Assembly (NCBI GenBank): GCA_046597175.1
Contig: JBKJKY010000003.1
Coordinates: forward strand, 1 to 55,267
Length of the DNA: 55,267 bases
Reading direction: 5' to 3'
From: Parcubacteria group bacterium
Lineage (GTDB): Bacteria; Patescibacteriota; Minisyncoccia; Phycocordibacterales; Zambryskibacteraceae
Part shown: one piece after another, positions 2,056 through 40,800 of the stretch
Layout: each line of letters opens with the position of its first letter
Position numbering within the stretch: the stretch's first letter is position 1
Notes under the pieces: model-generated
Told to the model about the DNA's origin: nothing
The model's database searches: none
What the model saw: only the letters and a program-made list of their open reading frames with translations
Program-made: the position numbers and the translations under genes

Positions 2056-3204
2056 TTAGTAGAGGTCAATGGTTTTTTCTACCATTTGTTTTAGTGAAAA
2101 TTTTTCCTCAACGGTATGTTTAAGTGCTATTCCATACTGCTCTAGCATATCTCTACTTGCAAGCAGTTCCTGGAGCGCGTATTCAATCTGAGATATATTT
2201 CCAGCTTCTACGAGTATTCCGTTTCGTTTGTGTTCGATAGCTTCAGGAATACCACCAACCCGGCTTGCTATTACGGGGAGCGATGCGAGCCCCGCTTCGA
2301 GTGGTGCGTAGGGGAATGCTTCAGTACGAGAGGTGAGGGTGAAGATATCAAAGGCATTAAGGTACTCTGACGCATTTTCTTTGAATCCTACGAGGTGTAC
2401 CTTTTCGCTCAGATTAAGCGTTTGAATAAGTGTTTGAAGATTTTTGCCCTCCTCTCCACCGCCAATAATGACGAGTGCAGTATCAGGTACCGCTTTCACT
2501 GTGTTTGCAAACGCTCGAATAATAAAGTCGAGGCCTTTGTTCTTGTGGAGTTCTGAAATCGTACCAATCCAGAGCGCCTCTTTAAAATTCCCCAAATTAC
2601 TTCGCGCATCAGCTTTTTGTAAAAGTGGAATCGTACCAATGCCGTTATAGATGAGTGTTATTTTCTTGCTTACAAGTGGGAAGCGAGAAATTTGATCCGC
2701 TACTTTCTTTGAAACAGCAATGGTATCGTGGGAAAGTACGATGGTGAGAAAATGGAGGAAGGCAAGGATAATTTTTGAAACAATATTTCTTTTTTCATTA
2801 AACGCCCAGCCGTGCCCGGTAAATATGGCTCTGGTATAGGTGGTGGAGTAGTTCAGTATTGAACGAATATTCATAAAACGAACAGCAAGAGCTCCCAGCC
2901 CACCTGCTTTTGAACTATTGAGGTGAACTACATCAGGGTTTTCATCTTTCAGAATTTTGAGGAAGGCAATGAGTGATCGAATATCAGAAATTACACCGAT
3001 GTCACGCTTCAGACTCTCAATTCGGAGTACTCGAATTCCTTTTTCGATTAGTTTCTTTTCAAGCGTATCACCTTCGCCGAGAACAACGAGTACCTCGAAG
3101 TTATCTTTCGGAAGGTTCGTAGCTAGGTCAAAGACGTATCGTTGGGCGCCTCCAAAGTTACCCTTTGTTATAAAATATAAAATTTTTTTTGTTTTATTCT
3201 GCAT
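2056..3204 (-). CDS. glycosyltransferase family 4 (GT-B fold)
   Basis: 382 aa. C-terminal SRTEAFPYAPLEAGLASLPVIASRVGGIPEAIEHKRNGILVE is typical of the GT4 donor-binding region. The N-terminus KILYFITKGNFGG lies in a duplicated 41-bp segment. Confidence 0.85.
   Translation of the reverse strand: MQNKTKKILYFITKGNFGGAQRYVFDLATNLPKDNFEVLVVLGEGDTLEKKLIEKGIRVLRIESLKRDIGVISDIRSLIAFLKILKDENPDVVHLNSSKAGGLGALAVRFMNIRSILNYSTTYTRAIFTGHGWAFNEKRNIVSKIILAFLHFLTIVLSHDTIAVSKKVADQISRFPLVSKKITLIYNGIGTIPLLQKADARSNLGNFKEALWIGTISELHKNKGLDFIIRAFANTVKAVPDTALVIIGGGEEGKNLQTLIQTLNLSEKVHLVGFKENASEYLNAFDIFTLTSRTEAFPYAPLEAGLASLPVIASRVGGIPEAIEHKRNGILVEAGNISQIEYALQELLASRDMLEQYGIALKHTVEEKFSLKQMVEKTIDLY
3149..3189. repeat. 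41-bp direct repeat, copy 1 (encodes residues 6-19 of the current glycosyltransferase)
   Basis: cctccaaagttaccctttgttataaaatataaaattttttt is identical to 3330-3370. Confidence 0.95.
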
Positions 3205-3239
3205 AGTCTGTTTTTTTGATTGCTACAGGCTTCACGGAT

Positions 3240-3303
3240 ATTTTCTTGCTAGAAAATTCCGCGACCCCACCTCACTCGCCTGCGCTCGCTCCGGTCTTGC
3301 GCC
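3240..3303 (-). repeat. bipartite interspersed repeat, copy A (AT hairpin plus GC-rich module)
   Basis: Hairpin ATTTTCT-tgct-AGAAAAT (3240-3257) next to ccgcgaccccacctcactcgcctgcgctcgctccggtcttgcgcc. The reverse complement aligns at roughly 85% with 13684-13724. Confidence 0.8.
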
Positions 3304-3379
3304 AACGGGTCCCTTCCCGATGGCTCACACCTCCAAAGTTACCCTTTGTTATAAAATATAAAATTTTTTTCTTGTCCAT
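3272..3379 (-). pseudogene. fossil 5' end of the glycosyltransferase gene, displaced by a ~140-bp insertion
   Basis: The minus strand reads ATG GAC AAG AAA AAA ATT ..., giving MDKKKILYFITKGNFGGVSHREGTRWRKTGASAGE*. The first 17 aa match the live gene's N-terminus, then the frame runs into repeat copy A and stops. The ATG sits in a TAATATG junction with the upstream EamA stop. Confidence 0.6.
3330..3370. repeat. 41-bp direct repeat, copy 2
   Basis: Identical to 3149-3189. The two copies are separated by 140 bp that contain repeat copy A. Confidence 0.95.
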
Positions 3380-10535: not shown

Positions 10536-10899
10536 CGGGTCCACGAAGCGAAGCTTCGTGGACCCGAAAGTCTGGTCTCTATTCCCTTGAACACTCAAGG
10601 TGTTCTCTTTGGTCACCCAGACCGAAGTTCACACTCAGGTGTAGTGTTGCGATCCTTGCTCAGGGGATCACTACGAAAGTGGTCAAACTCGCGGAGCCAG
10701 TGTCTGTGCTGGCTTTTGCGACACAGGATTCACGCAGTGCGTAAGGGGTCCCTGTCCACACAGGTTTCCTTATCACACCAAGCTTCACCAAGGAGAAAGA
10801 GACCATGAATACGTTCTGCTACTTATAGTGCGCCTGCTGAGAAGGGATGTCAATGGAGTATATTCTAGGCCGTGGATTACGTGTTTTCGGGCCTATTTT
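10536..10899 (+). ncRNA. candidate structured RNA, unclassified (weak RNase P-like motifs)
   Basis: No credible ORF. 14-bp hairpin at 10536-10566 followed by GAAAGTC. Long-range pairing of GGTCTCT (10574-80) with AGAGACC (10798-804). Several local hairpins, one with a GAAA tetraloop. Ends in a taggcc...ggccta-tttt hairpin at 10866-10899. Confidence 0.35.
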
Positions 10900-10939: not shown

Positions 10940-10967
10940 TTGACTCCTGCCTTCACATCTATATAAT
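10940..10967 (+). promoter_or_regulatory. rRNA promoter (consensus-like sigma70)
   Basis: TTGACT (10940-45), a 16-nt spacer, TATAAT (10962-67), about 295 nt upstream of the 16S 5' end. Confidence 0.7.
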
Positions 10968-11022: not shown

Positions 11023-11261
11023 CTTGTTACATAAAAAATTTGAGAACGCCTAAGGTTTTAAAGACACCTTAGGCTAGCAAGTCTCAAGAATTCTAATAAT
11101 GTGATTCCTTTCCGCTACATGCACCTTCGGTGGTGAACGTACAAGCAATACGGTGTAGTTGGAAGAAGTGAGTTAGAAATCAAATTCTTAACCGGATCAA
11201 ACCGAAGTCTAATATTCTTTGTTTTGTTCCGTTCCAAATGAAATGTTCAAACACATCATTT

Positions 11262-12724
<1,463 letters not shown>

Positions 12725-12997: not shown

Positions 12998-13439
12998 ACC
13001 GTAACACTCACGAATACTCGGAGGAGAGATGAAGCGTCATTTGCTTTTGTCGATCGCGGGGTTGAAGCGTGTGGTGTGTCTGCTCTTTGTATCAACGGGT
13101 ATCCTGGAGGTGAACGTCCGGTATGGTTCACACCGTGCGGGATTCCCAATTTCGCTCGAACCGAAGAAGGTAGAGCTGTGCTGGTTGATGCGCCCTGGCG
13201 ATGCAGTTTGCGCGCTGGTGCTCTCAGCCCAGCTCTACTTCATTCTTTCAATTGTCTTCGTAAACGCTGGTCACTCAAACGATTTCTTTGATTGGCCGGT
13301 CAAAATGATGGTGCAGTTGCAGGGCCAGCTTCGAGGTTGGCGGTAGGGTAGTTGAGCGGAGTTAGCGAAGTGAGTGGTATCAGCAGTTTGCTGGGCCAGA
13401 GCTGGGGTCGGACAGAACATGTCCGGCCCCTTTCTATTT
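12998..13439 (+). ncRNA. promoter-to-terminator unit of unknown nature: GC-enriched structured RNA, or an atypical 105-aa ORF (13029-13346)
   Basis: Bounded by the 12964 promoter and the 13404 terminator. GC content and third-codon-position G/C bias differ from neighbouring genes. Long-range stem TAGAGCTG (13171-78) with CAGCTCTA (13230-37), plus many local hairpins. Confidence 0.3.
13404..13439 (+). terminator. intrinsic terminator
   Basis: ggggtcggac-agaacat-gtccggcccc (10 bp) followed by tttctattt. Confidence 0.75.
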
Positions 13440-13450
13440 GAAATGTTTTT

Positions 13451-13459
13451 TGGTATATT
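13451..13459 (+). promoter_or_regulatory. extended -10 promoter (TGgTATATT) upstream of the tRNA region
   Basis: ttttTGgTATATTctc. No clear -35 element. Confidence 0.4.
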
Positions 13460-13545
13460 CTCAGACTAGTCGCTTGTGACTAGTGGCCAGAAACTAGTAG
13501 AACGCGCGTAACTGTTTTGGTAGGTATAAAGGTAGAAAAAGTAAT

Positions 13546-13569
13546 GCGCGTGTAGCTCAGCTGATAGAG
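13546..13569 (+). pseudogene. tRNA-Ile 5' fragment (acceptor strand plus D-arm only)
   Basis: gcgcgtgtagctcagctgatagag matches 13826-13849 of the intact tRNA at 23 of 24 positions. It continues into a non-tRNA hairpin (gaccggg-atgaga-cccggtc). Confidence 0.7.
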
Positions 13570-13592
13570 TGAGACCGGGATGAGACCCGGTC

Positions 13593-13653
13593 GCAAGGTC
13601 GGAATCTGTGGAGGCAGATGAGACTGGGTCGCAGAAAATTTCAACAGAAATTT
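13593..13653 (+). repeat. bipartite interspersed repeat, copy D (most diverged)
   Basis: gcaaggtcggaatctgtggaggcagatgagactgggtcgcag followed by hairpin AAATTTC-aaca-GAAATTT. Confidence 0.6.
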
Positions 13654-13683
13654 ATTTGTGACAGAGAGTGCTGGGATACTTGT

Positions 13684-13745
13684 GCAAGGCCGGACCGAGC
13701 GAAGGCGAGGGAGGTGGGGTCGCGACTTTTCTCAGCAGAGAAAAA
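13684..13745 (+). repeat. bipartite interspersed repeat, copy B
   Basis: gcaaggccggaccgagcgaaggcgagggaggtggggtcgcg followed by hairpin TTTTCTC-agca-GAGAAAA. Confidence 0.8.
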
Positions 13746-13782
13746 GTTGTGATAGCGACTGACTTCTTATAGGGGCGGTTCG

Positions 13783-13936
13783 TTTTTTAGATTCTTTTCG
13801 ATAATTTCATTGTAATTTGTTTAGTGCGCGTGTAGCTCAGCTGGTAGAGCAATCGACTGATACTCGGTAGGTCCCAGGTTCGAACCCTGGCACGCGCACT
13901 AAGCACGGTACAAATTATCGAAAAGAATCTAAAAGA
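13783..13936. repeat. 25-bp inverted repeat pair (13783-13807 and 13912-13936) enclosing tRNA-Ile
   Basis: agattcttttcgataattt and aaattatcgaaaagaatct are a perfect 19-bp pair, extended by T/A pairs. The acceptor stem is also extended by 5 bp (ttagt/actaa). Confidence 0.85.
13826..13898 (+). tRNA. tRNA-Ile (anticodon GAU)
   Basis: Manual cloverleaf: acceptor GCGCGTG/CACGCGC, D-arm GCTC-AGCTGGTA-GAGC, anticodon arm ATCGA-CTGATAC-TCGGT, T-arm CCAGG-TTCGAAC-CCTGG, discriminator A. No CCA is encoded. Confidence 0.9.
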
Positions 13937-14056
13937 TTTTGTTGAAGCTATATTTTCCCGTCTGTATCACGGATAAAACTTTGCTAAGTTTTTCCGCGAT
14001 TCTTACAGAATCTGTACACCTTTCACATTTTGATTACAAAACGTTCAAGGTCTTGC

Positions 14057-14118
14057 AAAAACTCAAGGTGTTCGTTTTTTCACCCACCTCGGCTCGTCAG
14101 CCTCCGGTCTTGCAGAGC
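14057..14118 (-). repeat. bipartite interspersed repeat, copy C (partial GC module)
   Basis: Hairpin AAAAAC...GTTTTT followed by cacccacctcggctcgtcagcctccggtcttgcagagc. It shares ccacctc...ctccggtcttgc with copy A. Confidence 0.6.
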
Positions 14119-14136
14119 TCCAGGTATTCGCTCTTC

Positions 14137-14164
14137 ACTCGGTAGGTCCCAGGTTCGAACCCTG
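14137..14164 (+). pseudogene. tRNA-Ile 3' fragment (anticodon 3' stem, variable loop, T-arm)
   Basis: actcggtaggtcccaggttcgaaccctg is 28 of 28 identical to 13862-13889. The acceptor 3' strand is not conserved. Followed by a long hairpin and a second T-arm-like cagggttcgaagcctg (14190-14205). Confidence 0.75.
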
Positions 14165-14352
14165 AACGTAAACCGTGGGACGGTCTACGTTCAGGGTTCG
14201 AAGCCTGTTTGACTATTTTTCTAAGCTTTAAAAAAGCGACAGAAAAATCCAAACAGGGTACTGATTCTGTAAGAATCGAACTGACCAGATAAAGCTCTCT
14301 CCCAGCCCTCCAATTTCTTGCTATACTATGGACACACTAATAATTATTATTT

Positions 14353-18194: not shown

Positions 18195-19337
18195 ATGAAA
18201 AAAATACTGATATTTTCAACCGCCTACATTCCATTTATTGGAGGTGCAGAAATTGCTGTGAAAGAAATCACCGACAGACTCGCTGGTAATTTTGAGTTCC
18301 ACATGATTACACTTAATCTTGATGGTACACAAAAAGGAGAAGAGCAGGTGGGGGCTGTCAAAGTTCATAGAGTTCTTGGACAAGGAAAATTTTCAAAACT
18401 CCTCTTTCCCTTTGTTGCATATCAAAAAGCAGTCAATCTCCACAGAAAAGAGACTTTTGATATGACCTGGAGTATTATGGCTTCGTTTGGTGGATTCGCA
18501 GCGCGGTTTTTCAAAAAGAAATTTCCGAGTGTCCCATTTGTACTCACGCTCCAAGAAGGAGATCCGATTCCAGAAATCGAACACAAGGTTCGTTTTGTAA
18601 AAAAATGGTTTCTGGAGATATTCACCCTTGCTGACAAAGTCCAAGTGATATCAAAGTATCTCGGTGAGTGGGCTAAGGGGATGGGAACTCAAAAACCAAT
18701 CATCCTTGTTCCAAATGGTGTTGATACTCTGTTGTTTGATAATGACAAAAATCCAATCTCTCCTGATCTAAGGAAAGAGTTCTGGAGTCAAAAAGGAGTA
18801 CCGAGTGACGCAACAATCCTCATTACCACTTCAAGGTTGGTGCATAAAAATGCAGTTGATGTAGTCATTCAATCGCTCCCGTCGTTATCGAATACTCATT
18901 TCGTAATACTTGGTGAAGGAGCGAAACTCACTTCGCTTAAAGCACTCGCGGTGGATCTTGGAGTAGATACTCGAGTTCATTTTGAAGGGTTAATTCCGAG
19001 TACTGATATTGTCCAATATCTCCATCACTCAGATATTTTTATCAGACCTTCAAGGTCTGAAGGGATGGGGAATTCATTTGTAGAGGCGATGGTTGCTGAG
19101 CTTGCGGTCATCGCTACTCCTGTTGGAGGAATTGTCGACTTCCTCATCGATAGCAAGACGGGGCTTTTTTGTGCTGTGGATGATCCCCAGAGCATTGCTA
19201 AATGTGTGGAAAGATATATGAACAACCGAGAGGAAAGAAGCACCATTATCCAGAATGCAAAAAAGATGGCACTTGAAAAGTATGATTGGAATTTAATTGC
19301 AGAGAGTATGAAAGAAAAGGTGTTTTCTGATTTGTAA
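18195..19337 (+). CDS. glycosyltransferase family 4
   Basis: 380 aa. PSRSEGMGNSFVEAMVAELAVIATPVGGIVDFLIDSKTGLF. Confidence 0.85.
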   Translation: MKKILIFSTAYIPFIGGAEIAVKEITDRLAGNFEFHMITLNLDGTQKGEEQVGAVKVHRVLGQGKFSKLLFPFVAYQKAVNLHRKETFDMTWSIMASFGGFAARFFKKKFPSVPFVLTLQEGDPIPEIEHKVRFVKKWFLEIFTLADKVQVISKYLGEWAKGMGTQKPIILVPNGVDTLLFDNDKNPISPDLRKEFWSQKGVPSDATILITTSRLVHKNAVDVVIQSLPSLSNTHFVILGEGAKLTSLKALAVDLGVDTRVHFEGLIPSTDIVQYLHHSDIFIRPSRSEGMGNSFVEAMVAELAVIATPVGGIVDFLIDSKTGLFCAVDDPQSIAKCVERYMNNREERSTIIQNAKKMALEKYDWNLIAESMKEKVFSDL

Positions 19338-19338
19338 T

Positions 19339-20748
19339 ATGAAAGGGAAAAAAGTATTACTTGTAGGACTTGGAATTTTAGGCGGTGGTGTTGCAACCGC
19401 ACGCTTTCTTTTGAAAAAGGGAGCTAAGCTTAGAGTTACCGATAAAAGGGATAGAGAGATCTTAAATTCATCTATTGCAAAACTCCCGAAAGAAATTATC
19501 TATACGATTGGCAGTCACAAGAAAGAAGATTTCAAATGGGCAGATATTGTTGTTGCGAACCCTGCAGTTCCACGTTTTGGTGAATGGATTGTATATGCAG
19601 AGAAATTAGGCAAAATTGTGTACAACGATCTTACACTCTTTCTTACTTTTTTCGCACAGGAAAAGAGAGAGTATATCGCAGTTACCGGAACTCGAGGCAA
19701 AACAACAAGCAGTTTATGGATCAATTATTTTCTTACGGACTCAGTGCTTGGTGGTAACATTCCAGAAAAAGCACTTCTGAAAATTCTGGGAAAACGGGGA
19801 GATCCATTTGTACTTGAAACTTCCTCATTTCAGCTCGAATACATGACTAAAGGACTGCTTCCTCCCACAGTTGCGCTTATTACGAACCTCTATCAAGACC
19901 ACCTGAATCGTCATGGAAGTATGGAGGAGTATGCGAGAGTGAAAGCAAATATCTTTCTGAATCAAACAGAAAAAGACTTCTTAATAGTAAATAACGATAA
20001 TGAGTCGACTGAAACATTCCTTAGTTTAAACCCAAAGTCTGCAGTGTACCGTGTTTCCACAAAGAAACTTCGGGGTAAGCAAAATGGACTATATGTATTC
20101 GATCGCGCAATCTTTTTTCAGGAAAACGGCCAAACGGTAAAGGTGGCGAAAACTCCATATAATACTGATTTTGAAAATCACAATCTACTCGGAGCAATGC
20201 TCGCAAGCTTTCTCTATCTGCGTGGAAGAGATCAAAAAAACAATTCAGGTATTTGGAAACATCTTGCGGGAAAAATATCAAAGCTGCCACAAGCTCATAT
20301 GAGGAGGGAAGTGATTCTCAAAAAGAAAAATCTTGTGGTAGTCAATGATAGTGCAGGCACAAGTCCGGAAGCTACCATTGCACTTCTCGATTCGTACCGC
20401 GCTGTTCCAAAAAAAGAACTCTATGTAATTACAGGGGGTACTGATAAGCAACTTGATTTTAAGCAGTGGGCAAATGTGGTAGCGGATTCTGTGTTACCCA
20501 CTAATCTCTATTTTGTATCGGGAAGCGCAACAGAAAAAATGAAGGATGAGTTGCAAAAAAGAACACACAAAGGTAAGCAGTCTTGGAATGAATTTTCAAA
20601 TTTACAAAGCGTGCTCGAAGCTATTTCACAGGCGTCCGGCGCAAAAACAATCCTCTTCTCTCCGAGCAGTGCGAGCTTTGAAAAGTATAAGAACGAGTTT
20701 GACCGAGGGAGAGTGTTTGAGAGGCAGATCTCAAAATACTTCAAATAA
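19339..20748 (+). CDS. murD: UDP-N-acetylmuramoylalanine--D-glutamate ligase
   Basis: 469 aa. N-terminal Rossmann-like VGLGILGGGVATARFLLKKGAKLRVTD and the Mur-ligase P-loop IAVTGTRGKTTSS. The MurD call rests on the N-terminal domain type. Confidence 0.8.
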   Translation: MKGKKVLLVGLGILGGGVATARFLLKKGAKLRVTDKRDREILNSSIAKLPKEIIYTIGSHKKEDFKWADIVVANPAVPRFGEWIVYAEKLGKIVYNDLTLFLTFFAQEKREYIAVTGTRGKTTSSLWINYFLTDSVLGGNIPEKALLKILGKRGDPFVLETSSFQLEYMTKGLLPPTVALITNLYQDHLNRHGSMEEYARVKANIFLNQTEKDFLIVNNDNESTETFLSLNPKSAVYRVSTKKLRGKQNGLYVFDRAIFFQENGQTVKVAKTPYNTDFENHNLLGAMLASFLYLRGRDQKNNSGIWKHLAGKISKLPQAHMRREVILKKKNLVVVNDSAGTSPEATIALLDSYRAVPKKELYVITGGTDKQLDFKQWANVVADSVLPTNLYFVSGSATEKMKDELQKRTHKGKQSWNEFSNLQSVLEAISQASGAKTILFSPSSASFEKYKNEFDRGRVFERQISKYFK

Positions 20749-20803
20749 GGTGCATAGGGGTAATAATTCGATTTAGCCCACATTCTCAGGTATTATAAGG
20801 GGC

Positions 20804-21955
20804 ATGAATAGGAGTCCTCAAAGTGGGAAAACACCCAAAATACTCATCGCTACAGGCATTTTTCCGCCCCAGGAGGGTGGTCCAGCTACCTATAGTGCTC
20901 TCCTACTATCGAAGCTCCCAGAACTCGGTTTTGAGGTTGGTGTGGTCAATTTTGGGGACGTACTCAAATTTCCAAAAATCATCCGACATGTAGTGTATAC
21001 TGCCCGACTCATACAAGCGGGTATTGGTGTCGAGCTTATCTATGCCCAAGATCCGGTATCTGTTGGGCTGCCCGCTCTCATTGTGGCAAAGCTCCTTCGG
21101 AAGAAACTCGTGGTAAAAATTGTTGGCGATTATGCATGGGAGCAGGGAGTTCAAAGAAGTGGAGTAACGGATTTGCTCGATGAATTTTCAATGAAAAATT
21201 CGTACGGTATGTTTGTGAGAATATTAAAAGCGGTAGAATTACGCGTTGCGCGTGGCGCCAGCACGATCATTGTTCCCAGTAATTATCTTAAAAAAATTGT
21301 TTCGAATTGGGGAGTTGATGGAGAAAAAATTACCGTAATTTATAATGCATTCGACGTGCCAGAAATTACCGAGTCAAAAGCAGAGCTTCGAGTAAATTTT
21401 GGATATCGAACACCAATAATCGTAAGTGCAGGCAGGCTTGTTCCATGGAAGGGATTTCGAACACTCATTCGAATTATGCCTGAGATTATCAAATTAGTTC
21501 CTGATGCAAAACTTCTTATTGTGGGGAGTGGGCCAGATGAAAGTCTGATCAGAAAAGATATTACCGATAACAACTTAGAAAATTCTGTGAGCCTGCTTGG
21601 AAAACTTTCCCATAATGATTTGCTCAAAGTAATGAAGGCGTCGGACGTGTTTGCACTCAATACTTCCTATGAAGGGTTTTCACATCTCATATTAGAGGCA
21701 CTCGCGGTCGAAACTCCGATTGTCACAACAAGAGTGGGGGGGAATGTTGAGATTGTTGAGGACTCAAAAAACGGTCACTTAGTTTTGTATAATAATGAAG
21801 AAGAACTTGTGAAGGCAATCAGTCACTTACTACTCCAGAAAGGAGATGCGTATGTATATGGGAAAGAAGGAGCGCGGAGTGTGTCCGCCTTTACCACAGA
21901 GCGGATGCTTATCGAATTAACAGCTGTATTACACAGAGAACTATGCGCGTCATAA
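20804..21955 (+). CDS. glycosyltransferase family 4
   Basis: 383 aa. TSYEGFSHLILEALAVETPIVTTRVGGNVEIVEDSKNGHLV. Confidence 0.85.
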   Translation: MNRSPQSGKTPKILIATGIFPPQEGGPATYSALLLSKLPELGFEVGVVNFGDVLKFPKIIRHVVYTARLIQAGIGVELIYAQDPVSVGLPALIVAKLLRKKLVVKIVGDYAWEQGVQRSGVTDLLDEFSMKNSYGMFVRILKAVELRVARGASTIIVPSNYLKKIVSNWGVDGEKITVIYNAFDVPEITESKAELRVNFGYRTPIIVSAGRLVPWKGFRTLIRIMPEIIKLVPDAKLLIVGSGPDESLIRKDITDNNLENSVSLLGKLSHNDLLKVMKASDVFALNTSYEGFSHLILEALAVETPIVTTRVGGNVEIVEDSKNGHLVLYNNEEELVKAISHLLLQKGDAYVYGKEGARSVSAFTTERMLIELTAVLHRELCAS

Positions 21956-23085
21956 TGCTCTCGACTGATCGAAATGTGTTTACTCCAGATTCGCAAATGG
22001 CGAATCGAATGATTTCGTATGGCGAAAGTTTTGGAGAGCTCCATGTGATCGTGTTCTCACTGGCATCGCTGGGGTATGTGCCAGTCGAGCTTTCACCGAA
22101 GGTATTTGTATATCCAACCACTTCGAGTAATAAGCTCATGTATATTTGGGATACTCTCAAAATTGCTGGGCAAATTTCTCGTATGCTCTATTTCGGTCAA
22201 ACGGTTATTAGTACTCAAGATCCATTTGAAAAAGGAATTGTAGGATTACTCCTAAAGTGGAAAACAAAGTTTCCGCTTCAAATGCAAATTCATACGGATT
22301 TGTTTGCAAAGAACTTTTACGATGGTCAATTGCTCAACTGGCTTCGTTTCCAAATAGCACGCTACACTCTTAAAAGAGCGAATGGTATTCGTGTGGTACG
22401 AGAAAAAATTAAAAACGATTTGGTGAAAAACCTTTTTATCAAACCGAGCAAAATCGTCGTACTCCCCATTTTTGTGGATATCGAAGCGATTCGACAAAAG
22501 CCTACCGTGCGGAGTTTGAAAGAATTGTACCCAGAATTTTCGTATACCATTCTCATGGTATCGAGACTGACCGAAGAGAAGCGAGTTACGCTTGGCATTG
22601 AAATATTTGCAGAGGTTCTCAAAAAGATTCCTGGCATTGGACTTATCATCGTTGGGTCGGGGAGTGACCAGGAGAAACTTCAAAGGAATATTGCAAAGCT
22701 TGGTATCGTGCAGTCTGTTCGATTTGAGGGTTGGCAACCTGAAGTTGCTTCATATTACAAAACAGCGGATGTGTTTTTAAATACATCTGACTTCGAAGGG
22801 TATGGACTCACTCTCGTTGAATCTGCAAGTATCGGCTGTCCGATTGTCACTTCACACGTTGGTATTGCCCAAGATATTCTAAAGAATGGTGCTAGCGTTC
22901 TTACGTGTGAAAACGAGTCAGTTGAATGCTTCGTAAACAATATCATTCGACTTCTCACCACACCGGAACTGCGGAAGGAAATTGCTGATAATGCATTTGT
23001 TGCTATGTCAGAAATGGCTACAACCGAAGCAGAATACTTAGAAAAGTATCGCGTATCGCTTGAATCACTCCTTGCGATAAAATAG
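21943..23085 (+). CDS. glycosyltransferase family 4
   Basis: 380 aa. TSDFEGYGLTLVESASIGCPIVTSHVGIAQDIL. A 13-nt overlap with the upstream gene (an alternative ATG at 21955 sits in a TAATG junction). Confidence 0.85.
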   Translation: MRVIMLSTDRNVFTPDSQMANRMISYGESFGELHVIVFSLASLGYVPVELSPKVFVYPTTSSNKLMYIWDTLKIAGQISRMLYFGQTVISTQDPFEKGIVGLLLKWKTKFPLQMQIHTDLFAKNFYDGQLLNWLRFQIARYTLKRANGIRVVREKIKNDLVKNLFIKPSKIVVLPIFVDIEAIRQKPTVRSLKELYPEFSYTILMVSRLTEEKRVTLGIEIFAEVLKKIPGIGLIIVGSGSDQEKLQRNIAKLGIVQSVRFEGWQPEVASYYKTADVFLNTSDFEGYGLTLVESASIGCPIVTSHVGIAQDILKNGASVLTCENESVECFVNNIIRLLTTPELRKEIADNAFVAMSEMATTEAEYLEKYRVSLESLLAIK

Positions 23086-23089
23086 TTAT

Positions 23090-24136
23090 ATGAAACTGCT
23101 CATTATTACCCAAAAGGTCGATAAAAATGATTCCGTTCTTGGTTTTTTTCATCGTTGGATTGAAGAATTTGCAAAGCGTGCCGAAAAGATCACCGTTATC
23201 TGTCTTGAAGAGGGGATTCATGCCCTGCCAGCAAACGTGAAAGTGTATTCGCTCGGCAAAAAAAAAGGGAATTCAAAACTTCACCAGGTAGTCCGTTTTT
23301 ATTCACTCATCATTTCACAAAGAGCGCAGTACGACAGTGTGTTCGTGCATATGAATCAGATTTACGTACTTCTCGGCGGATTGCTGTGGAAGATATGGAG
23401 TAAAAAGACTGCTCTCTGGTATGTACACAGACAAATAAGCTTCTCACTCTGGCTAGCGGAAAAACTGGTGGATGTCATTTTCACCTCATCAAAAGAGAGT
23501 TTCCGAGTACCCAGTAATAAAGTTCAATATGTGGGACATGGAATAGACTCTCAGAATTTTGCGCACGCACATGACTCACGGGATATTATTAAAACCGGCA
23601 TTTTGTATGTGGGAAGAATTACACCGATTAAAAACTTAGAAACGCTCATCGACGCAACGGAGATACTACACGGAAAAATTCCAGAACTTTCCGTCACCTG
23701 CATTGGTGAACCTGTGACGGTTACCGATATAAATTATTTTGAAACATTAAAAAAAACCATACGAGAAAAGAATCTGGGAAGCGTTGTAATGTTTGTCGGT
23801 CGCGTGCAGAACTCTGACATTGCACATGAATATAGCAAAGCGACTCTCTCGGTGAACCTCTCTCCGACAGGGGGGTGGGATAAGTCAGTACTCGAATCAC
23901 TCATGGCCGGGTGCCCCGTATTTGCCTCAAATAAGGCACTTTCTCCTGTATTTGGTGAATATGCAGATACCTTTGTATTTGAACAGGGTAATGCGCAAGA
24001 CCTCGCGAGCAAAATAGAGGTATTTCTCCAAAATAGAGATAAGGATATAATCGTACACACGCTTTCAGAGAATGCGATGAAAAAATATGATTTAAGGAAT
24101 TTGGTTTTGAACATTATTGATCAACTAGAACCGTAA
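23090..24136 (+). CDS. glycosyltransferase (GT-B, GT4-like)
   Basis: 348 aa. PTGGWDKSVLESLMAGCPVFASN. Confidence 0.8.
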   Translation: MKLLIITQKVDKNDSVLGFFHRWIEEFAKRAEKITVICLEEGIHALPANVKVYSLGKKKGNSKLHQVVRFYSLIISQRAQYDSVFVHMNQIYVLLGGLLWKIWSKKTALWYVHRQISFSLWLAEKLVDVIFTSSKESFRVPSNKVQYVGHGIDSQNFAHAHDSRDIIKTGILYVGRITPIKNLETLIDATEILHGKIPELSVTCIGEPVTVTDINYFETLKKTIREKNLGSVVMFVGRVQNSDIAHEYSKATLSVNLSPTGGWDKSVLESLMAGCPVFASNKALSPVFGEYADTFVFEQGNAQDLASKIEVFLQNRDKDIIVHTLSENAMKKYDLRNLVLNIIDQLEP

Positions 24137-24137
24137 T

Positions 24138-25226
24138 ATGAAAAAGGAGGCAATGCATTACAGTGTTTATTTTATTCCTTTTGATATTAAGGGTCCGGTA
24201 TATTTAGAGTTGTTAAAATCAAATATCAATGGTGCCTCGAACGATGGTTCGTCATATCAGGTGCATCGATTCTCTTGGAAACATCTTTTTTTCTCTCCAC
24301 TTACATCTCATGAACATCGAATCGTGCATATCCATTGGGAATCAAACGTGTATGGAAGTAAGTACATCGCCGTATCACTCGTAAAAATACTTCTTAGGTT
24401 TCCAGGTTTCTGGTTACTAAAAAAACTTCGAGGGGTAAAAATTATTTGGACCATGCACAACCTCCATTCGCACGACTATCCGCATCCAAGAATTGATACC
24501 TTTGGCAGATCACTCATGTGGAAACTTGCAGATAAAGTCTTACTTCATGAAAAATCATTTGCACAATTGGAATCTCAAAAAAGAAAAGATGTTGAAGTAG
24601 AATGTATTCCTCCGGGGAATTACATTGGTGCATACGGACCCGTATGGAGTGGTGATAAGTATGCGCTTCGTAGAGAATATGGAATCCCTGATTCTAGTAT
24701 AGTGCTTCTTTCGCTAGGAAGCGTTAGGCCATACAAAGCTCTTCCTGAGCTCATTTCTTGCGTTCAAACTATTACAAAAAAAGGAGTACCCATTTGTCTG
24801 TTCATTGCAGGCCAGGCAAGCGCTCTATATGGAGCAGAAATCAAAGCTTTGGTAGGTGATGATCCATCTATTATTCTCTATTTACAGTATGTTGATGATC
24901 AAGATATTCCAAAGCTCCATGGATTAGCCGACTATTCAGCATTTTATTATGGAGATTCAGCCTTGGGATCTGCCGCGATCTTACTGTCGCTTTCATATGG
25001 TGTGCCAGTCATTTCTCGTGATTTCGCAGTTTCTGAGCTTGTGGTAGAAGGGAAAAATGGCTTCAAGTTTCATGACAATGCTGGTTTAACAAAAATTTTA
25101 GAGAATTTACCGAACGTGCCAGCGGTGGATCGCTCTACCGTCATAGGGACTGTGTCAGATTGGGATTGGAAAAAAATGGGTGAAGCGACCCGACTAGCAT
25201 ATAATAGTCTCTATATTCATGAGTAA
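24138..25226 (+). CDS. glycosyltransferase-like protein (GT-B)
   Basis: 362 aa, sitting in the glycosyltransferase array. C-terminal GSAAILLSLSYGVPVISRDFAVSELVVEGKNGF. The family assignment is less certain. Confidence 0.65.
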   Translation: MKKEAMHYSVYFIPFDIKGPVYLELLKSNINGASNDGSSYQVHRFSWKHLFFSPLTSHEHRIVHIHWESNVYGSKYIAVSLVKILLRFPGFWLLKKLRGVKIIWTMHNLHSHDYPHPRIDTFGRSLMWKLADKVLLHEKSFAQLESQKRKDVEVECIPPGNYIGAYGPVWSGDKYALRREYGIPDSSIVLLSLGSVRPYKALPELISCVQTITKKGVPICLFIAGQASALYGAEIKALVGDDPSIILYLQYVDDQDIPKLHGLADYSAFYYGDSALGSAAILLSLSYGVPVISRDFAVSELVVEGKNGFKFHDNAGLTKILENLPNVPAVDRSTVIGTVSDWDWKKMGEATRLAYNSLYIHE

Positions 25227-25884
25227 ACTGACATTAAAAAAAATAATTCCATTTATAAAAGCCCGGTATGCCCCAAGAGGAGGTAGGGTTACATTTTCTC
25301 AGTATGGAGAAGATCTAATTATGATGGATATTCTTAAGAAACGGGGGTTACCTTTGACCTATGTGGATATTGGTGCTCATCATCCGTATTTTGGTAATAA
25401 TACGTACTTACTGTATAGAAATGGTGGAAAGGGAGTTTTAGTAGAACCAAACAGTGCGCTGTGCAAAGTAATAGAGTCAAAAAGGCCAAAAGATACCTGC
25501 TTAAACGTTGGAGCTGGTAAAGTAGATGGTGAAGCTAATTTTTATGAATTCAAGCAGTCAACTCGGAGTACTTTTTCAAAAGATCAGGCAGATGTATTTA
25601 CAAAAAAAACAGGGCACAAGCCAAAAGTCGAACAAAAGAAAATACTTTCTTTAGATTCGATCATTCATGAATCTTTTGCTGGAGAAGTTCCTTCACTTAT
25701 TTCTATTGATGCGGAAGGTCTCGATATTCAGATTTTGTCGGGATATAGTTTTACTATTAGACCTGCAATCTTTTGCATTGAAACGGAGGAAACAAATGGT
25801 GAAGTAGAAGCCTTGATGCAAAAAGAGGGGTACTCAGTGCAAGCGAAAATCCTCCAAAACACCATTTTTGTTGATATCCGATAA
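25219..25884 (+). CDS. FkbM-family SAM-dependent methyltransferase
   Basis: 221 aa. YVDIGAHHPYFGNNTY ... GGKGVLVEPN ... SLISIDAEG. ATGAGTAA overlap with the upstream gene. Confidence 0.8.
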   Translation: MSKLTLKKIIPFIKARYAPRGGRVTFSQYGEDLIMMDILKKRGLPLTYVDIGAHHPYFGNNTYLLYRNGGKGVLVEPNSALCKVIESKRPKDTCLNVGAGKVDGEANFYEFKQSTRSTFSKDQADVFTKKTGHKPKVEQKKILSLDSIIHESFAGEVPSLISIDAEGLDIQILSGYSFTIRPAIFCIETEETNGEVEALMQKEGYSVQAKILQNTIFVDIR

Positions 25885-25885
25885 T

Positions 25886-26653
25886 ATGAAATTAGTTGCA
25901 ATTCTTCGAATAAAAAATCAGATAGACACGATTGACGAGTGCATTACAAAACTCGCTTCGTTTACTGATGAAATTATTGTGCTCGATAATGGATCAACCG
26001 ACGGCACACTCGAAGCGTATGCTCGCCACAGCAAGATTGTAACTATTCTGAAAACAGAAGGGTTTGATGAGGGAAGAGATAAGATCATGCTACTTGAAGA
26101 GGCGAAACGGAGAAATCCTGATTGGATACTGTGGTGTGACGCAGATGAAGTATTTGAAAATCATTTCACAAGAAGTGTAGTAGAAAAGTACATGCGCTCG
26201 TCATATAACCGCGTCACTTTCCGCATGTGTAATTTCTGGCTCAGTCGCGAGCGATGTAGGTACGATAGTGAGTATTTTCTATACACACTGCACCCCCAAA
26301 GAAGTATGTGGAGAAATATGGAGAGTGCCTATTTCAAGAATCTCGTTATCCATAATGGAGACATCTTAGGTGTCAGGGGAAAAACACTCCTTTCGCCCTA
26401 TCGAATAAAGCACTATGGGTACGTCGATAAAAAGAAGATTGAAGAAAAGCTCGCAATCTATCGAGCAGCTGACAAGAGTGACAAACGTGATTATGATAAG
26501 ACAAGCCCTGACCTTCCCTACAAAACCTTTCGGTTTTACGAATTCAATAATTGCTTGGTCAACTTTGCGTATATTCTGATTTACAAATATACTGCTAATT
26601 CAATTTGGATTACGTTCAGAATCTTTCAGAAGTTAAAGAAGCTATGTTCATGA
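25886..26653 (+). CDS. glycosyltransferase family 2
   Basis: MKLVAILRIKNQ...DEIIVLDNGSTDGT and a DADE motif. ATG at 25886 sits in a TAATATG junction. Confidence 0.85.
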   Translation: MKLVAILRIKNQIDTIDECITKLASFTDEIIVLDNGSTDGTLEAYARHSKIVTILKTEGFDEGRDKIMLLEEAKRRNPDWILWCDADEVFENHFTRSVVEKYMRSSYNRVTFRMCNFWLSRERCRYDSEYFLYTLHPQRSMWRNMESAYFKNLVIHNGDILGVRGKTLLSPYRIKHYGYVDKKKIEEKLAIYRAADKSDKRDYDKTSPDLPYKTFRFYEFNNCLVNFAYILIYKYTANSIWITFRIFQKLKKLCS

Positions 26654-27567
26654 ATACTAATCCCCCTTGTCATATTTGTGGCACTTCCTCAGCATTTTTT
26701 ATGTCAAAAGATGGTTTCGACGAGTACCTATGCCCGAAATGTCATCTCTCATTTGTCTTTCCTCAGCCGAGTGCGCAGTGGCTTGCCGAGGAAATATATT
26801 CACTCGAATCTGGATACCAGAGAAATAAAAGTTCGGATCTTTCTCGTGAAAATGAGGGCCTACGGTTTGGAAGGGTCCTTGATTATGTAGCAAAAACCAA
26901 GCCAGGAGGTAGGTTTCTTGATGTTGGCTGTTCAAGTGGGCAGGTAATGTACTGGGCAAGAAAGAGGGGGCTTGTACCATCCGGTGTTGAGATAAACAAA
27001 CGCACCGCAGATATAGCGCTTGCAAATGGTTTCCCGGTGTTTAATGGCTTTCTCGAGAATGCACCATTTGAAAAAAAATCATTCGATGTGGTGTTTTTAG
27101 GTGACGTGATTGAGCATGTCAATAACCCCCGAGAATTTATCTCCGAAGTTGTGTCTTTTTTGAAACCAAATGGAATCATTGCAATCTCTACCCCAAATGT
27201 AGATTGTGCTTGGTCACACGTAACATTGTGGTTTAGTAAGGTGTTTAATATCCCGTGGACTTCAGCGACACCCCCGTATCATTTGTTTCAGTTCAACCAT
27301 AAGACTCTCTCGATGCTTATGGACGAGTTTGGTATGAGTACCCAAAAAGCTTTTTTCTTGCCACCGCCAAGTCTTCGGTATGAACTTGGCTCACTCCATC
27401 TTTTAAAAAGATACAAAAAAGAGAAAACATTCGGTAGCGCTCTCTCTATGATTTTTGCTTTTTCAGTATATATTTTAGTATACGGAGTAAATTTCATACT
27501 GCACCCAATCCTAAAAAAAGACTTCCAAATGTCTGTGGTGTATGGGGGAGTAAGTAAATTATCATAA
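26644..27567 (+). CDS. class I SAM-dependent methyltransferase with an N-terminal Cys4 zinc-ribbon
   Basis: CHICG...CPKCH followed by FLDVGCSSGQ and GDVIEHVNNPREF. The start could be 26644 or 26650 (ATGA overlap). Confidence 0.8.
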   Translation: MFMNTNPPCHICGTSSAFFMSKDGFDEYLCPKCHLSFVFPQPSAQWLAEEIYSLESGYQRNKSSDLSRENEGLRFGRVLDYVAKTKPGGRFLDVGCSSGQVMYWARKRGLVPSGVEINKRTADIALANGFPVFNGFLENAPFEKKSFDVVFLGDVIEHVNNPREFISEVVSFLKPNGIIAISTPNVDCAWSHVTLWFSKVFNIPWTSATPPYHLFQFNHKTLSMLMDEFGMSTQKAFFLPPPSLRYELGSLHLLKRYKKEKTFGSALSMIFAFSVYILVYGVNFILHPILKKDFQMSVVYGGVSKLS

Positions 27568-27575
27568 CAACTTAT

Positions 27576-29367: not shown

Positions 29368-29368
29368 T

Positions 29369-31574: not shown

Positions 31575-31615
31575 AGCATCCAAGGGTCTTTTCGGGTAGA
31601 ATTGGCTCAAAATAT

Positions 31616-32671: not shown

Positions 32672-32673
32672 TT

Positions 32674-33321: not shown

Positions 33322-33329
33322 ACATAACC

Positions 33330-34568: not shown

Positions 34569-34740
34569 TCAAACCAAAAAAAATATCGAGATTGCCAAAC
34601 TATCGTTTGCTGTACACAAATCATAAAATTTACTAAGCTAACTTGGGTGGATGTATGGCTTTGTGGCGAAAAGGTTTTGCTTTGCAAATTACATGCAGGA
34701 AGTAATATATTATTTTCTTAAGCTGTGTTAGAGTCATTTT

Positions 34741-36720: not shown

Positions 36721-36773
36721 TTGTATTCACAATGATAGAATAAGCGGTACTAATAAACAAATAATGGCATTTC

Positions 36774-39962: not shown

Positions 39963-39991
39963 TTGACTTTTATCTGATATTTTGCTATTAT
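39963..39991 (+). promoter_or_regulatory. sigma70-like promoter of a non-coding unit
   Basis: TTGACT, a 17-nt spacer, TATTAT. The predicted TSS near 39998 coincides with the first base of the closing stem. Confidence 0.65.
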
Positions 39992-39997
39992 ACCTTT

Positions 39998-40288: not shown

Positions 40289-40407
40289 TTAAAATACAAA
40301 CAAAGGTACATGCAGATTTTAAATTTTCTTATTCTTACACTAATGAGCGAAAAGTATTTCCATGAGACTGCGCAGATGGAAAATCGTATAAGCATCTACA
40401 CTAATGA

Positions 40408-40794: not shown

Positions 40795-40800
40795 TCTCAC

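What the first reader, a model, noticed from the sequence alone, without database searches (positions are those of the whole stretch)
13546..14210. Intact tRNA-Ile flanked by a 5'-half copy upstream and a 3'-half copy downstream
The 5' 24 nt of the tRNA (acceptor strand plus D-arm) are repeated at 13546-69 with 23 of 24 identities, 280 nt upstream of the real gene. The 28 nt from the anticodon stem to the T-arm are repeated perfectly at 14137-64, 250 nt downstream. A second T-arm-like motif follows at 14190-205. The two halves cannot form one tRNA, because the downstream copy's acceptor strand is AACGTAA and not CACGCGC. The intact gene also sits inside a 25-bp perfect inverted repeat (13783-807 and 13912-936) that extends its acceptor stem. 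This pattern fits repeated integration and excision at a tRNA att site with loss of the elements. It would also fit a tRNA cassette inserted into an older, now split, tRNA gene.
Basis: seen in the sequence. Interest (0 to 1): 0.65.

Follow-up and report, generated by a model that had tools for sequence, protein, structure and literature searches.

The report
Intact tRNA-Ile nested in a broken copy
The two tRNA "halves" are the ends of a second tRNA-Ile copy broken by small hairpin-rich insertion modules, with the working tRNA at the tip of the resulting long foldback; the same design recurs in many Patescibacteria (CPR bacteria) and matched no Rfam family or paper I found.

Summary
tRNA positions 1-24 recur at 13546-69 (23/24). 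Positions 37-64 recur at 14137-64 (28/28). The intact tRNA-Ile(GAU) at 13826-99 sits in a 47-pair leader/trailer stem. Chance expectation is zero, and independent Logan contigs of the source run agree.

It is not a one-off scar. Two 90-100-nt three-hairpin modules, here called E, lie between the 5' piece and the tRNA in + orientation. Two more lie between the tRNA and the 3' piece in - orientation. The whole 600 nt is therefore one foldback with the tRNA at its apex (fold z -12.5).

About 15 other distinct patescibacterial loci, from GTDB genomes and JGI metagenomes, show the same plan. A tRNA-Ile copy is interrupted after G24 and in the anticodon loop by E modules, and an intact tRNA-Ile is always nested or adjacent.

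E hairpins covary strongly. E also shows filled and empty sites: in a glycosyltransferase gene of this window versus two relatives, and at G24^C25 in a relative of L033. The window holds no integrase, transposase or phage gene, and no Rfam family matches.

Best reading (0.55): small non-coding insertion elements invaded a resident tRNA-Ile, and an internal intact copy carries the function. Main rival (0.22): a functional tRNA-like RNA.

The parts
11261..12724 (+). 16S rRNA gene (context). It has its own promoter at 10940-10967, a leader/trailer processing stem (11208-35 with 12877-904) and a terminator at 12906-37. There is no 23S in the window.
   Evidence: Rfam 1376 bits; promoter and terminator scan; inverted match
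13451..13459 (+). Extended -10 promoter-like TGGTATATT upstream of the composite unit. It lies in an 86-nt stretch that is 97.7% identical in L026. The same TTTTGGTATAnT motif precedes the unit or the tRNA in L009, L011, L015, L017 and L040.
   Evidence: Direct reading; blast. Promoter function is inferred.
13486..13545 (+). Leader of the outer (older) tRNA copy. It contains a short acceptor-like GCGCGTAACTG (13504-14) and TTTTGGTAGGTATAA. It is homologous to the leader of the only tRNA-Ile in L026 and L010.
   Evidence: Local alignment z 10.7 and 6.1; blast
13546..13569 (+). Outer 5' piece, tRNA-Ile positions 1-24 (acceptor 5' strand and D arm), 23/24 identical to the intact gene.
13566..13664 (+). 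E module copy a. Layout: AGAGTGAG, hairpin H1, CGCAAGG, hairpin H2, GGGTCGC, hairpin H3, TGTGAC.
   Evidence: Covariance model R1, 92.7 bits, E 2e-22
13665..13755 (+). E module copy b, in tandem with a. H1 is degenerate.
   Evidence: R1 66.1 bits
13754..13783 (+). Remnant of tRNA positions 28-35 (CGACTGA) followed by a degenerate small hairpin. This is the conserved motif CGACTGAC-YTCTT-RYA-GRRG-YKGT that marks the family.
13783..13825 (+). Left arm of the leader/trailer stem (perfect over 13785-13807). It resembles the promoter-leader of the plain tRNA-Ile gene of L019 and the left arms of L009 and L015.
13826..13899 (+). Intact tRNA-Ile(GAU), presumed to be the working gene.
   Evidence: ARAGORN; Rfam
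13900..13936 (+). Right arm of the leader/trailer stem (perfect over 13912-13934).
13964..14051 (-). E module copy d, inverted and 5'-truncated. It contains GCAAGACC, a hairpin, GGTGTACAG, the ATTCTGTAAGAAT hairpin, then CGCG and H3. Its + strand stretch 14000-14056 recurs at about 90-100% identity in other metagenomes and in L027.
   Evidence: R1 32.4 bits, E 9e-9
14052..14141 (-). E module copy c, inverted. Its 5' end (CGAGTGAAG on the - strand) abuts the 3' piece.
   Evidence: R1 30.5 bits, E 3e-8
14137..14164 (+). Outer 3' piece, tRNA-Ile positions 37-64, 28/28 identical to the intact gene. At 14165/14166 there is a 48-nt deletion relative to L002 that removed the acceptor 3' strand and the terminator.
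14166..14281 (+). A further E-type module. It comprises a hairpin with a TGGGA loop (14166-92), an inverted T-arm fragment (14189-14202), the hairpin 14204-57, GGTACTG and the GATTCTGTAAGAATC hairpin (14263-77). It is 91% identical to L002 212-324. The same module sits in the variable-loop region of the broken copy in L020, L030, L031 and L038.
3229..3331 (-). E module copy at an unrelated locus, inserted after codon 17 of a GT4 glycosyltransferase gene. It is flanked by a perfect 41-nt direct repeat of the gene's 5' coding sequence (3149-89 and 3330-70). The site is empty in relatives L043 and L044.
   Evidence: R1 78.4 bits
40405..40487 (+). Weak, partial E match. Only the H3-type hairpin GGAATTTTTTAGCAAAAAAATATCC is clear. 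It sits inside a local inverted repeat in a 1-kb intergenic region.
   Evidence: R1 22.2 bits, E 0.0015; sequence

Best explanation
The half copies are the two ends of an older, resident tRNA-Ile(GAU) gene that has been broken open. The break is filled by members of a family of small (about 90-130 nt) non-coding modules with three hairpins, which I call E.

In the window, two E copies in + orientation follow tRNA position 24. Two inverted copies precede position 38. Between them lies a complete tRNA-Ile gene with its own leader type, clamped by a 47-pair leader/trailer stem. The E copies on the two sides face each other, so the whole 600 nt is one long foldback with the working tRNA at its tip.

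Shown:
- the anatomy
- its recurrence in about 15 other patescibacterial loci
- the strand-specific, covarying hairpins of E
- insertion and absence of E as a unit at two kinds of site
- the outer pieces carrying the ancestral flanks

Inferred:
- E modules are non-autonomous mobile elements. They often land just 3' of a GAG, on either strand: after G24, and opposite C38-G41.
- tRNA-Ile(GAU) is indispensable and is probably a single-copy gene. Only genomes that keep an intact copy next to or inside the invaded one would then survive, which would explain why every such locus has one.
- The outer pieces stay identical to the inner gene through gene conversion or recency.
- As direct repeats, the outer pieces allow clean loss of the insert by recombination. 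This would yield the simpler loci seen in L002 and L026.
- In RNA, the long stem probably serves as a processing (RNase III-type) stem that releases the tRNA precursor.
For: Anatomy: model R1 places E at 13566-13664(+), 13665-13755(+), 13964-14051(-) and 14052-14141(-). As RNA, 13540-14170 folds at -246.6 kcal/mol, z -12.5, with the cloverleaf at the apex.

Recurrence: among GTDB species representatives, L015 has positions 1-20 at -104 and 40-75 at +140, both 100% identical to its tRNA. L020 has 1-20 and 55-76, both 100%. L009 has 43-74 at 91%. Sixteen JGI contigs carry the marker motif, and all hold tRNA-Ile-like pieces interrupted at the same points.

Long flank duplexes occur only where the tRNA is nested. 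Their z-scores run from -3 to -10, with different sequences in each locus, against about 0 in 20 plain loci.

E structure: 27 pairs, 19 with compensatory changes. 97.9% of cells are paired against 79.9% in shuffles, covariation score 0.62 against 0.26, 0/500 shuffles as high. One G-U pair is invariant in 9/9 copies.

Unit insertion and absence: the GT4 gene is filled in the window and empty in L043 and L044. A near-identical relative in run X47 has E starting exactly after ...GGCTAGAG, where L033 has none.

Polarity: the outer 5' flank matches the leaders of the sole tRNA in L026 and L010. The outer 3' flank matches the downstream region of L002.

No integrase or transposase is present. No Rfam family matches.
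Against: - No transposase or recombinase that could move E is identified, and the mechanism of movement is unknown.
- The combination E(+), CGACTGA, inverted E is itself conserved as a block across L020, L027, L030, L038 and L040. That looks more like one inherited unit than repeated independent hits.
- The H1 loop GGGA is kept in copies that lie in the tRNA's sense, but mostly not in inverted copies. This hints at selection on the transcript.
- The tRNA-like pieces are 100% identical to the local tRNA in about 15 of 17 loci, which a decaying relic would not predict without frequent gene conversion.
- The long direct repeats beside E are not explained by any known transposition chemistry: 41 nt at the GT4 gene, 20 and 28 nt in L035, 28 nt here.
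- The metagenome set was found with a motif that includes tRNA bases, so the apparent restriction to tRNA-Ile is partly due to ascertainment.
Confidence: 0.55

Rival explanations
1. The broken copy plus its modules is a functional, structured RNA gene. It would be a tRNA-Ile-shaped scaffold (acceptor, D and T arms) whose anticodon arm is replaced by a long multi-hairpin arm, co-transcribed with tRNA-Ile. The half copies would be its tRNA-like ends, perhaps processed by RNase P and RNase Z. The intact tRNA would merely be housed in one of its variable hairpins.
For: - The design is conserved in about 15 distinct loci with different tRNA-Ile sequences.
- In L015 and L009 one promoter lies just upstream of the outer 5' piece and one terminator just after the outer 3' piece.
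- The outer acceptor strands remain complementary in L015, L009, L020, L030, L033 and L038.
- Junction sequences and the GGGA loop are conserved in the sense orientation.
- The global fold brings the two pieces together.
- Read-length contigs from libraries labelled RNA-Seq span the tRNA/unit junction of an L033 relative. This is weak evidence.
Against: - The tRNA-like parts are eroded in several lineages. The window lacks the 3' acceptor strand. L027 and L031 lack the 5' acceptor strand. L009 has a mutated T loop. L032 lacks the T arm.
- The closest relatives L026 and L002 lack the arrangement.
- The position of the intact tRNA relative to the unit varies: upstream, at 26/27, or inside the hairpin.
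- E occurs in both orientations and at unrelated loci, and shows filled and empty sites.
- No Rfam family matches, and there is no RNA-level evidence of a stable product.
Confidence: 0.22
2. The repeats are classical att scars: remains of site-specific integration of genomic islands or prophages into the tRNA-Ile gene, once on each side, followed by deletion of the islands.
For: The 3' repeat starts in the anticodon loop and originally ran to the tRNA's 3' end (judged from L002), as in many integrase target sites. The displaced 3' piece keeps the ancestral downstream flank.
Against: - There is no integrase, excisionase or phage gene in the 55 kb.
- Only about 250 nt lie between the repeats, on both sides, and the same holds in at least 12 other genomes.
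- The intervening DNA is a conserved family of structured modules, not random remnants.
- A 5'-side duplication is unusual for integrases.
- Scans of viral contigs for three element-specific patterns found nothing.
Confidence: 0.05
3. There is no mobile element. Local tandem or inverted duplications of the tRNA region, template switching at palindromes and gene conversion alone built the mosaic.
For: The start-to-start spacings of the two repeats are similar (280 and 275 nt). The region is rich in inverted repeats that favour template switching. The arrangement differs between close relatives.
Against: - Apart from the tRNA pieces, the three putative units share no similarity.
- E modules occur far from the tRNA: at the GT4 gene, with empty sites in relatives, and at 40.4 kb.
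- The same modules occur in many genomes.
Confidence: 0.1
4. The repeats are an assembly artefact: a chimeric join at repeated tRNA k-mers.
For: Logan's contigs break inside the tRNA (13825-13854), where other organisms in the sample share k-mers.
Against: - Each half copy with its unique flanks lies inside a single Logan contig.
- The depths match.
- The two arms of the inverted repeat on separate contigs are perfectly complementary.
- Independent assemblies from other samples show the same architecture.
Confidence: 0.02

Closest known systems
Integrative elements (prophages, islands, ICEs) that target tRNA genes and carry a replacement tRNA end
   Same: Direct repeats of part of a tRNA flank the inserted DNA. 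The gene stays functional because the insert supplies the missing part. The displaced piece keeps the old flank.
   Different: No integrase and no cargo genes are present. The inserts are about 250 nt of structured non-coding modules. Both the 5' and the 3' parts are duplicated. The insert carries a whole tRNA gene, not only an end.
MITEs and palindromic insertion elements such as Rickettsia palindromic elements and REP/BIME (from my own knowledge; RPE literature listed)
   Same: They are small, non-coding, hairpin-forming and multi-copy. They occur in both orientations, show insertion polymorphism, and can sit inside genes.
   Different: A single E has no terminal inverted repeats and no short target-site duplication. 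Hairpins covary and keep a strand-specific G-U pair. Insertions are accompanied by long (20-41 nt) duplications of the target that keep the gene intact.
IS200/IS605-derived palindrome-associated elements (single-strand transposition; from my own knowledge)
   Same: Structure is strand-specific. There is no target-site duplication. The left end often abuts a fixed short sequence (GAG) on whichever strand the element lies.
   Different: No TnpA or TnpB gene was seen. E has three hairpins rather than subterminal left-end and right-end hairpins. The GAG rule is not universal: L026a and the copies downstream of tRNAs break it.
Mobile tRNA introns and split tRNA genes of Archaea (Fujishima et al., as summarised in PMC10714607)
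   Same: Insertions sit at fixed positions of tRNA genes, including the anticodon loop, and behave as transposable units.
   Different: This is a bacterial host. The junctions do not restore a tRNA if the inserts are removed (bases 25-26 and 36-37 are missing or altered). One insert is inverted and so cannot be spliced from the same transcript. An intact gene copy is always kept.
tRNA-like non-coding RNAs (tmRNA; bacterial Y RNA YrlA; from my own knowledge)
   Same: A tRNA-like acceptor/T/D module is combined with a long extra arm in place of the anticodon arm.
   Different: ARAGORN finds no tmRNA here. There is no G3-U70 and no tag reading frame. No Rfam family matches. The tRNA-like parts are eroded in several lineages.
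Leader/trailer processing stems of rRNA genes (RNase III substrates)
   Same: The intact tRNA is enclosed by a 25-50-bp stem that extends its acceptor stem, like the 16S stem of this same window (11208-35 with 12877-904).
   Different: Such stems are not usual around bacterial tRNA genes. Cleavage here has not been tested.

Membership tests
tRNA gene (the intact copy) | Cloverleaf with anticodon, found by tRNA detectors | tested here: met
   ARAGORN tRNA-Ile(gat) at 13826-13899; Rfam RF00005 71.2 bits
tRNA gene (the two fragments) | Each fragment, or the two together, forms a complete tRNA | tested here: not met
   Neither ARAGORN nor Rfam reports a tRNA at the fragments, even at E<=10. Positions 25-36 and 65-76 are absent.
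Integrase-mediated island at a tRNA att site | Tyrosine or serine recombinase gene next to one repeat | tested here: not met
   Pfam scans of 46 ORFs covering the window found none
Integrase-mediated island at a tRNA att site | Direct repeat covering the 3' part of the tRNA, with the displaced piece on the old flank | tested here: met
   28/28 repeat of positions 37-64; the downstream flank is 91% identical to that of L002
Integrase-mediated island at a tRNA att site | Kilobases of element DNA, or recognisable remnants, between the repeats | tested here: not met
   247 and 252 nt, made of E modules and the tRNA stem
MITE | Terminal inverted repeats and a short target-site duplication on each copy | tested here: not met
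   Single E copies start with AGAGTGAG and end with TGTGAC. No TIR or TSD is visible at the 16 copies inspected.
MITE / small non-autonomous element (broad sense) | Several copies per genome, both orientations, filled and empty sites among relatives | tested here: met
   Five clear copies and one weak partial match in the window. Empty GT4 site in L043 and L044. Filled versus empty at G24^C25.
IS200/IS605-type single-strand element | Y1 transposase (TnpA) in the genome; insertion 3' of a fixed tetra- or pentanucleotide | tested here: inconclusive
   GAG precedes most copies but not all. There is no TnpA in the window, and the rest of the genome is not available.
Group I intron in a tRNA anticodon loop | Conserved catalytic core that Rfam's Intron_gpI model would detect; exons that join into a tRNA | tested here: not met
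   No match at E<=10 in the window or E<=0.1 in seven other loci. The non-hairpin remainder is too short, and the joined exons lack bases.
Known structured RNA families (Rfam 15: T-box, hammerhead, twister, HDV-like, GOLLD, ROOL, YrlA, tmRNA and others) | Score at or near the family's gathering threshold | tested here: not met
   Only tRNA, 16S and chance hairpin matches to microRNA models were found
Conserved structured RNA (generic) | Compensatory base changes that keep helices across homologues | tested here: met
   E: 19 of 27 pairs have double changes; 0/500 shuffles reach the observed values. Stems around nested tRNAs keep pairing although their sequences differ.
Conserved structured RNA (generic) | A stable transcript with defined ends | not testable with these tools
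   No RNA run holds the window's locus. Only low-depth contigs of uncertain RNA origin cover an L033 relative.

The most novel reading that the evidence does not exclude
E and the composite unit are a previously undescribed kind of selfish element of Patescibacteria. On this reading a structured, strand-specific, non-coding module, moving as single-stranded DNA or RNA, homes into the essential tRNA-Ile gene. It escapes counter-selection because the unit carries, or forces retention of, a complete replacement tRNA at the tip of its own hairpin. Alternatively, or in addition, the unit has been domesticated as a new tRNA-shaped structured RNA.
Probability: 0.25. Interest if true: 0.85.

Novelty: new variant of a known kind. 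Interest (0 to 1): 0.62.

Why it matters
Patescibacteria have tiny genomes in which repeats and mobile DNA are thought to be scarce, and nearly all their non-coding RNA biology is unknown.

This locus shows a recurrent way of breaking an essential tRNA gene and rescuing it. The agent is a family of strongly covarying three-hairpin modules that matches no Rfam family.

If the modules are mobile, they are a new tool-like element with a defined target and an unusual way of sparing the target gene: long target duplications, or a whole replacement gene. If the unit is a functional RNA, it is a new tRNA-derived RNA class.

There is also a practical side. tRNA scanners, rRNA-operon annotation and att-site or island predictors will misread these loci in CPR genomes.

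Tried and rejected
- **Tandem triplication with a period of about 278 nt.** Self-blast shows no similarity between the three units beyond the tRNA pieces.
- **Known RNA families.** Rfam searches, both at gathering threshold and with permissive E-values, on the window and on seven other loci gave only tRNA, 16S and chance hairpin hits.
- **Hammerhead.** CTGATGAG, a stem, then CGCA in L026 resembles the hammerhead core but lacks the invariant GAAA. In other copies the motif is GAGTGAG.
- **T-box.** GGTGGGGTCGCG recalls the T-box sequence, but there is no Rfam hit and no aminoacyl-tRNA synthetase context.
- **Spliceable introns.** Removing the inserts does not restore a tRNA. Subfamily B has AGGGAGTTGG in place of TAGCTCAGTTGG, and one insert is inverted.
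- **Phage or plasmid origin.** Four viral-contig pattern scans were empty. Blastn against the phage and plasmid collections matches only the tRNA.
- **Genome scan for CAGGGTTCGAAGCCTGTTTGA.** Empty.
- **RNA evidence.** No RNA run holds L030's unit. For L033 there are only a few low-depth contigs from libraries labelled RNA-Seq, with no joints.
- **Literature.** Searches for tRNA introns, tRNA-like RNAs or MITEs in CPR found nothing that describes this.
- **Alignment A4.** Row 9 was my own artificial join of window copies c and d and is not used as evidence.
Full report
**Observation.** The window holds one tRNA gene, tRNA-Ile(GAU) at 13826-13899.
- Its first 24 bases recur at 13546-13569 with one mismatch, or 26/28 if four leader bases are included.
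- Positions 37-64 recur perfectly at 14137-14164.
- With up to three mismatches allowed, each pattern occurs exactly twice in the window, and shuffles give an expectation of zero.
- The gene sits in an inverted repeat that is perfect over 23 bp (13785-807 with 13912-934) and continues into the acceptor stem. The 70-nt flanks form 47 pairs, z -7.
- The motif at 14190-205 is the inverted complement of the T-arm region.

Only one public run, a soil metagenome, holds the locus. Its independently built Logan contigs agree base for base. They place the two arms of the inverted repeat on separate contigs, which rules out a chimeric join.

**Context.** The organism is a patescibacterium (CPR; Parcubacteria/Paceibacterota). 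Twenty-three GTDB species representatives share a 34-mer of this tRNA.
- The 16S gene at 11261-12724 is a self-contained unit with its own promoter, leader/trailer stem and terminator.
- There is no 23S gene in the 55 kb.
- The 46 ORFs encode cell-envelope, secretion and housekeeping functions. None is an integrase, transposase, reverse transcriptase or phage protein.

**What lies between the pieces.** A repeated module first showed up because 13684-13724 matches 3300-3260 on the other strand. Nine copies from the window and from relatives align well and fold into three hairpins.
- Of 27 pairs, 19 show compensatory double changes.
- 97.9% of cells are paired against 79.9% in column shuffles and about 42% with slid partners.
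- One G-U pair is invariant in all nine copies, so the structure belongs to one strand.

A covariance model built from this alignment (R1) finds five clear copies and one weak partial match in the window.
- Two lie in tandem in + orientation right after the 5' piece (13566-13664 and 13665-13755).
- Two lie in - orientation right before the 3' piece (13964-14051 and 14052-14141).
- One lies inside a glycosyltransferase gene (3229-3331, - strand).
- The partial match is at 40405-40487.

The locus therefore reads: 5' piece, E, E, a remnant of tRNA bases 28-35, left stem arm, tRNA, right stem arm, inverted E, inverted E, 3' piece. As RNA, 13540-14170 folds at -246.6 kcal/mol (z -12.5) into one long foldback with the cloverleaf at the tip. 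Downstream, 14166-14281 is a further module of a sister type.

**Relatives.**
- In L002 (neighbouring DUF975 protein 72% identical), the sole tRNA-Ile sits where the window has its 3' piece. The next 113 nt are 91% identical. The window has lost 48 nt there, including the acceptor strand and the terminator.
- In L026, whose 16S-side spacer is 91-98% identical, the sole tRNA-Ile carries the leader that in the window precedes the 5' piece. L010 has the same leader type.
- The outer pieces therefore hold the ancestral position.
- The inner gene has another leader type, shared with L009 and L015 and resembling the promoter-leader of L019.

**The same arrangement elsewhere.** Three other GTDB species have the same three-part arrangement. 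These are L015, L020 (a Zambryskibacteria genome) and L009, whose outer copy is decaying. A long flank duplex is found only in these genomes and not in the other 20.

A scan of JGI metagenomes for the conserved junction motif returned 16 contigs, about 13 of them distinct. All show a tRNA-Ile copy interrupted after the D arm and in the anticodon loop. Some are also interrupted in the D loop or the variable region.

Wherever the flanks are available there is also an intact tRNA-Ile. It lies upstream in tandem (L027, L033, L031), at position 26/27 (L035), or inside the variable hairpin of the inverted module, clamped by a long stem. The clamped form is seen in L028, L030, L031, L032, L037/L041, L038, L039 and L040.

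The tRNA-like pieces are 100% identical to the local tRNA in about 15 of 17 loci, although tRNAs differ between loci. In L031 two different tRNA-Ile genes are present, and the broken copy matches the nested one.

**Evidence that E inserts as a unit.**
- In relatives L043 (from the same run as L002) and L044, the EamA gene is followed at once by the GT4 gene.
- The window has 179 extra bases after codon 17. These are E, a new start codon, and a perfect 41-nt repeat of the 5' coding sequence, which restores the reading frame.
- A near-identical relative of L033 in a wastewater library has E beginning exactly after ...GGCTAGAG (tRNA position 24), where L033 has none.
- Most copies, on whichever strand they lie, are preceded by GAG.
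- L035 shows 20- and 28-nt direct repeats of leader plus acceptor, and of T stem plus trailer, around its inserts.

**Interpretation.** I favour (0.55) invasion of a resident tRNA-Ile gene by small non-autonomous structured elements. A complete inner gene is retained because the tRNA is needed. Gene conversion or recency would keep the pieces identical. Recombination between the direct repeats would give simpler loci such as those of L002 and L026.

The chief rival (0.22) is that the composite is a functional tRNA-shaped RNA. In its favour:
- the block E(+), CGACTGA, inverted E is conserved
- in L015 and L009 a promoter and a terminator bound the outer copy
- the GGGA loop is conserved in the sense orientation

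Against it:
- the tRNA-like parts are eroded in several lineages
- the unit is absent from the closest relatives
- the position of the intact tRNA varies
- E occurs at unrelated sites

The two readings are not exclusive. Classical island integration (0.05), duplication without mobile elements (0.10) and assembly artefact (0.02) fit poorly.

**Limits.**
- How E moves, and the origin of the long target duplications, remain unexplained.
- No RNA data of usable quality exist for these organisms.
- The metagenome set was gathered with a motif that includes tRNA bases, so the link of E to tRNA-Ile is partly a matter of ascertainment.
- Neither Rfam nor the literature searches turned up a description of this architecture.

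Noticed in passing
window 3149-3370 (- strand gene 2056-3204): An E module is inserted after codon 17 of a GT4 glycosyltransferase gene. A new ATG and a perfect 41-nt repeat of the 5' coding sequence regenerate the ORF. The orthologous site is empty in L043 and L044. The origin of the long duplication is unexplained.
   Followed up: yes
window 12690-12724: The 3' end of the 16S rRNA reads GGAGUAAUUCAAUU instead of GAUCACCUCCUUU. The anti-Shine-Dalgarno CCUCC is therefore missing. L026 has the same end. The 16S gene is unlinked from any 23S gene and has its own promoter and terminator.
   Followed up: partly
window 13029-13346: A small ORF (105 aa, preceded by GGAGGAGAG) lies between the 16S terminator and the tRNA unit. 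Its ends and flanks are 91-98% identical to L026, but the middle is unalignable. L026 has a different ORF with similar first and last residues (MKRHLL / MRRFAL at the start; QGQLRGW / QGQPRGW near the end). There is no Pfam match.
   Followed up: partly
window 39985-40245: Possible non-coding RNA gene. A TTGACT...TATTAT promoter-like site is followed by about 230 nt in which GTGAGTGCG...CGCACTCAC closes a stem and CCCCGCTAAC occurs twice, then a strong terminator. No Rfam family matches.
   Followed up: partly
window 40698-40796: A 32-codon, lysine-rich ORF (MAAKKKKVAKKKAPARKTKKKAAPKRKASKRA) with its own terminator.
   Followed up: no
window 40405-40503: An H3-type hairpin of the E family (GGAATTTTTTAGCAAAAAAATATCC) sits inside a local inverted repeat (GAGCGAGAATTATTTTTCAAAG with CTTTGAAAAATAATTCTCGC). 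The string TACACTAATGAGCGA is repeated 65 nt upstream.
   Followed up: partly
window 10580-10770: Upstream of the 16S promoter there are E-like scraps: CTTGAACACTCAAGGTGTTC resembles 14065-14085, and TAAGGGGTCCCTG resembles the H1 loop region.
   Followed up: no
L031 (= L034) 2400-3100: Two different intact tRNA-Ile(GAU) genes (93% identical over 58 nt) lie 230 nt apart. The broken copy matches the nested one, not the upstream one. A third T-arm/acceptor-like end (CTGGTTCGAATCCAGGCAGGCGCA) follows.
   Followed up: partly
L027 2294-2365 (- strand): A borderline match to group II intron domain model D1D4-1 (33.6 bits, gathering threshold 35) lies between the 16S gene and the tRNA unit.
   Followed up: no
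window 18195-37523: A long run of glycosyltransferase, methyltransferase, flippase and O-antigen-ligase-like genes: a large surface-glycan cluster next to the rRNA/tRNA locus.
   Followed up: no
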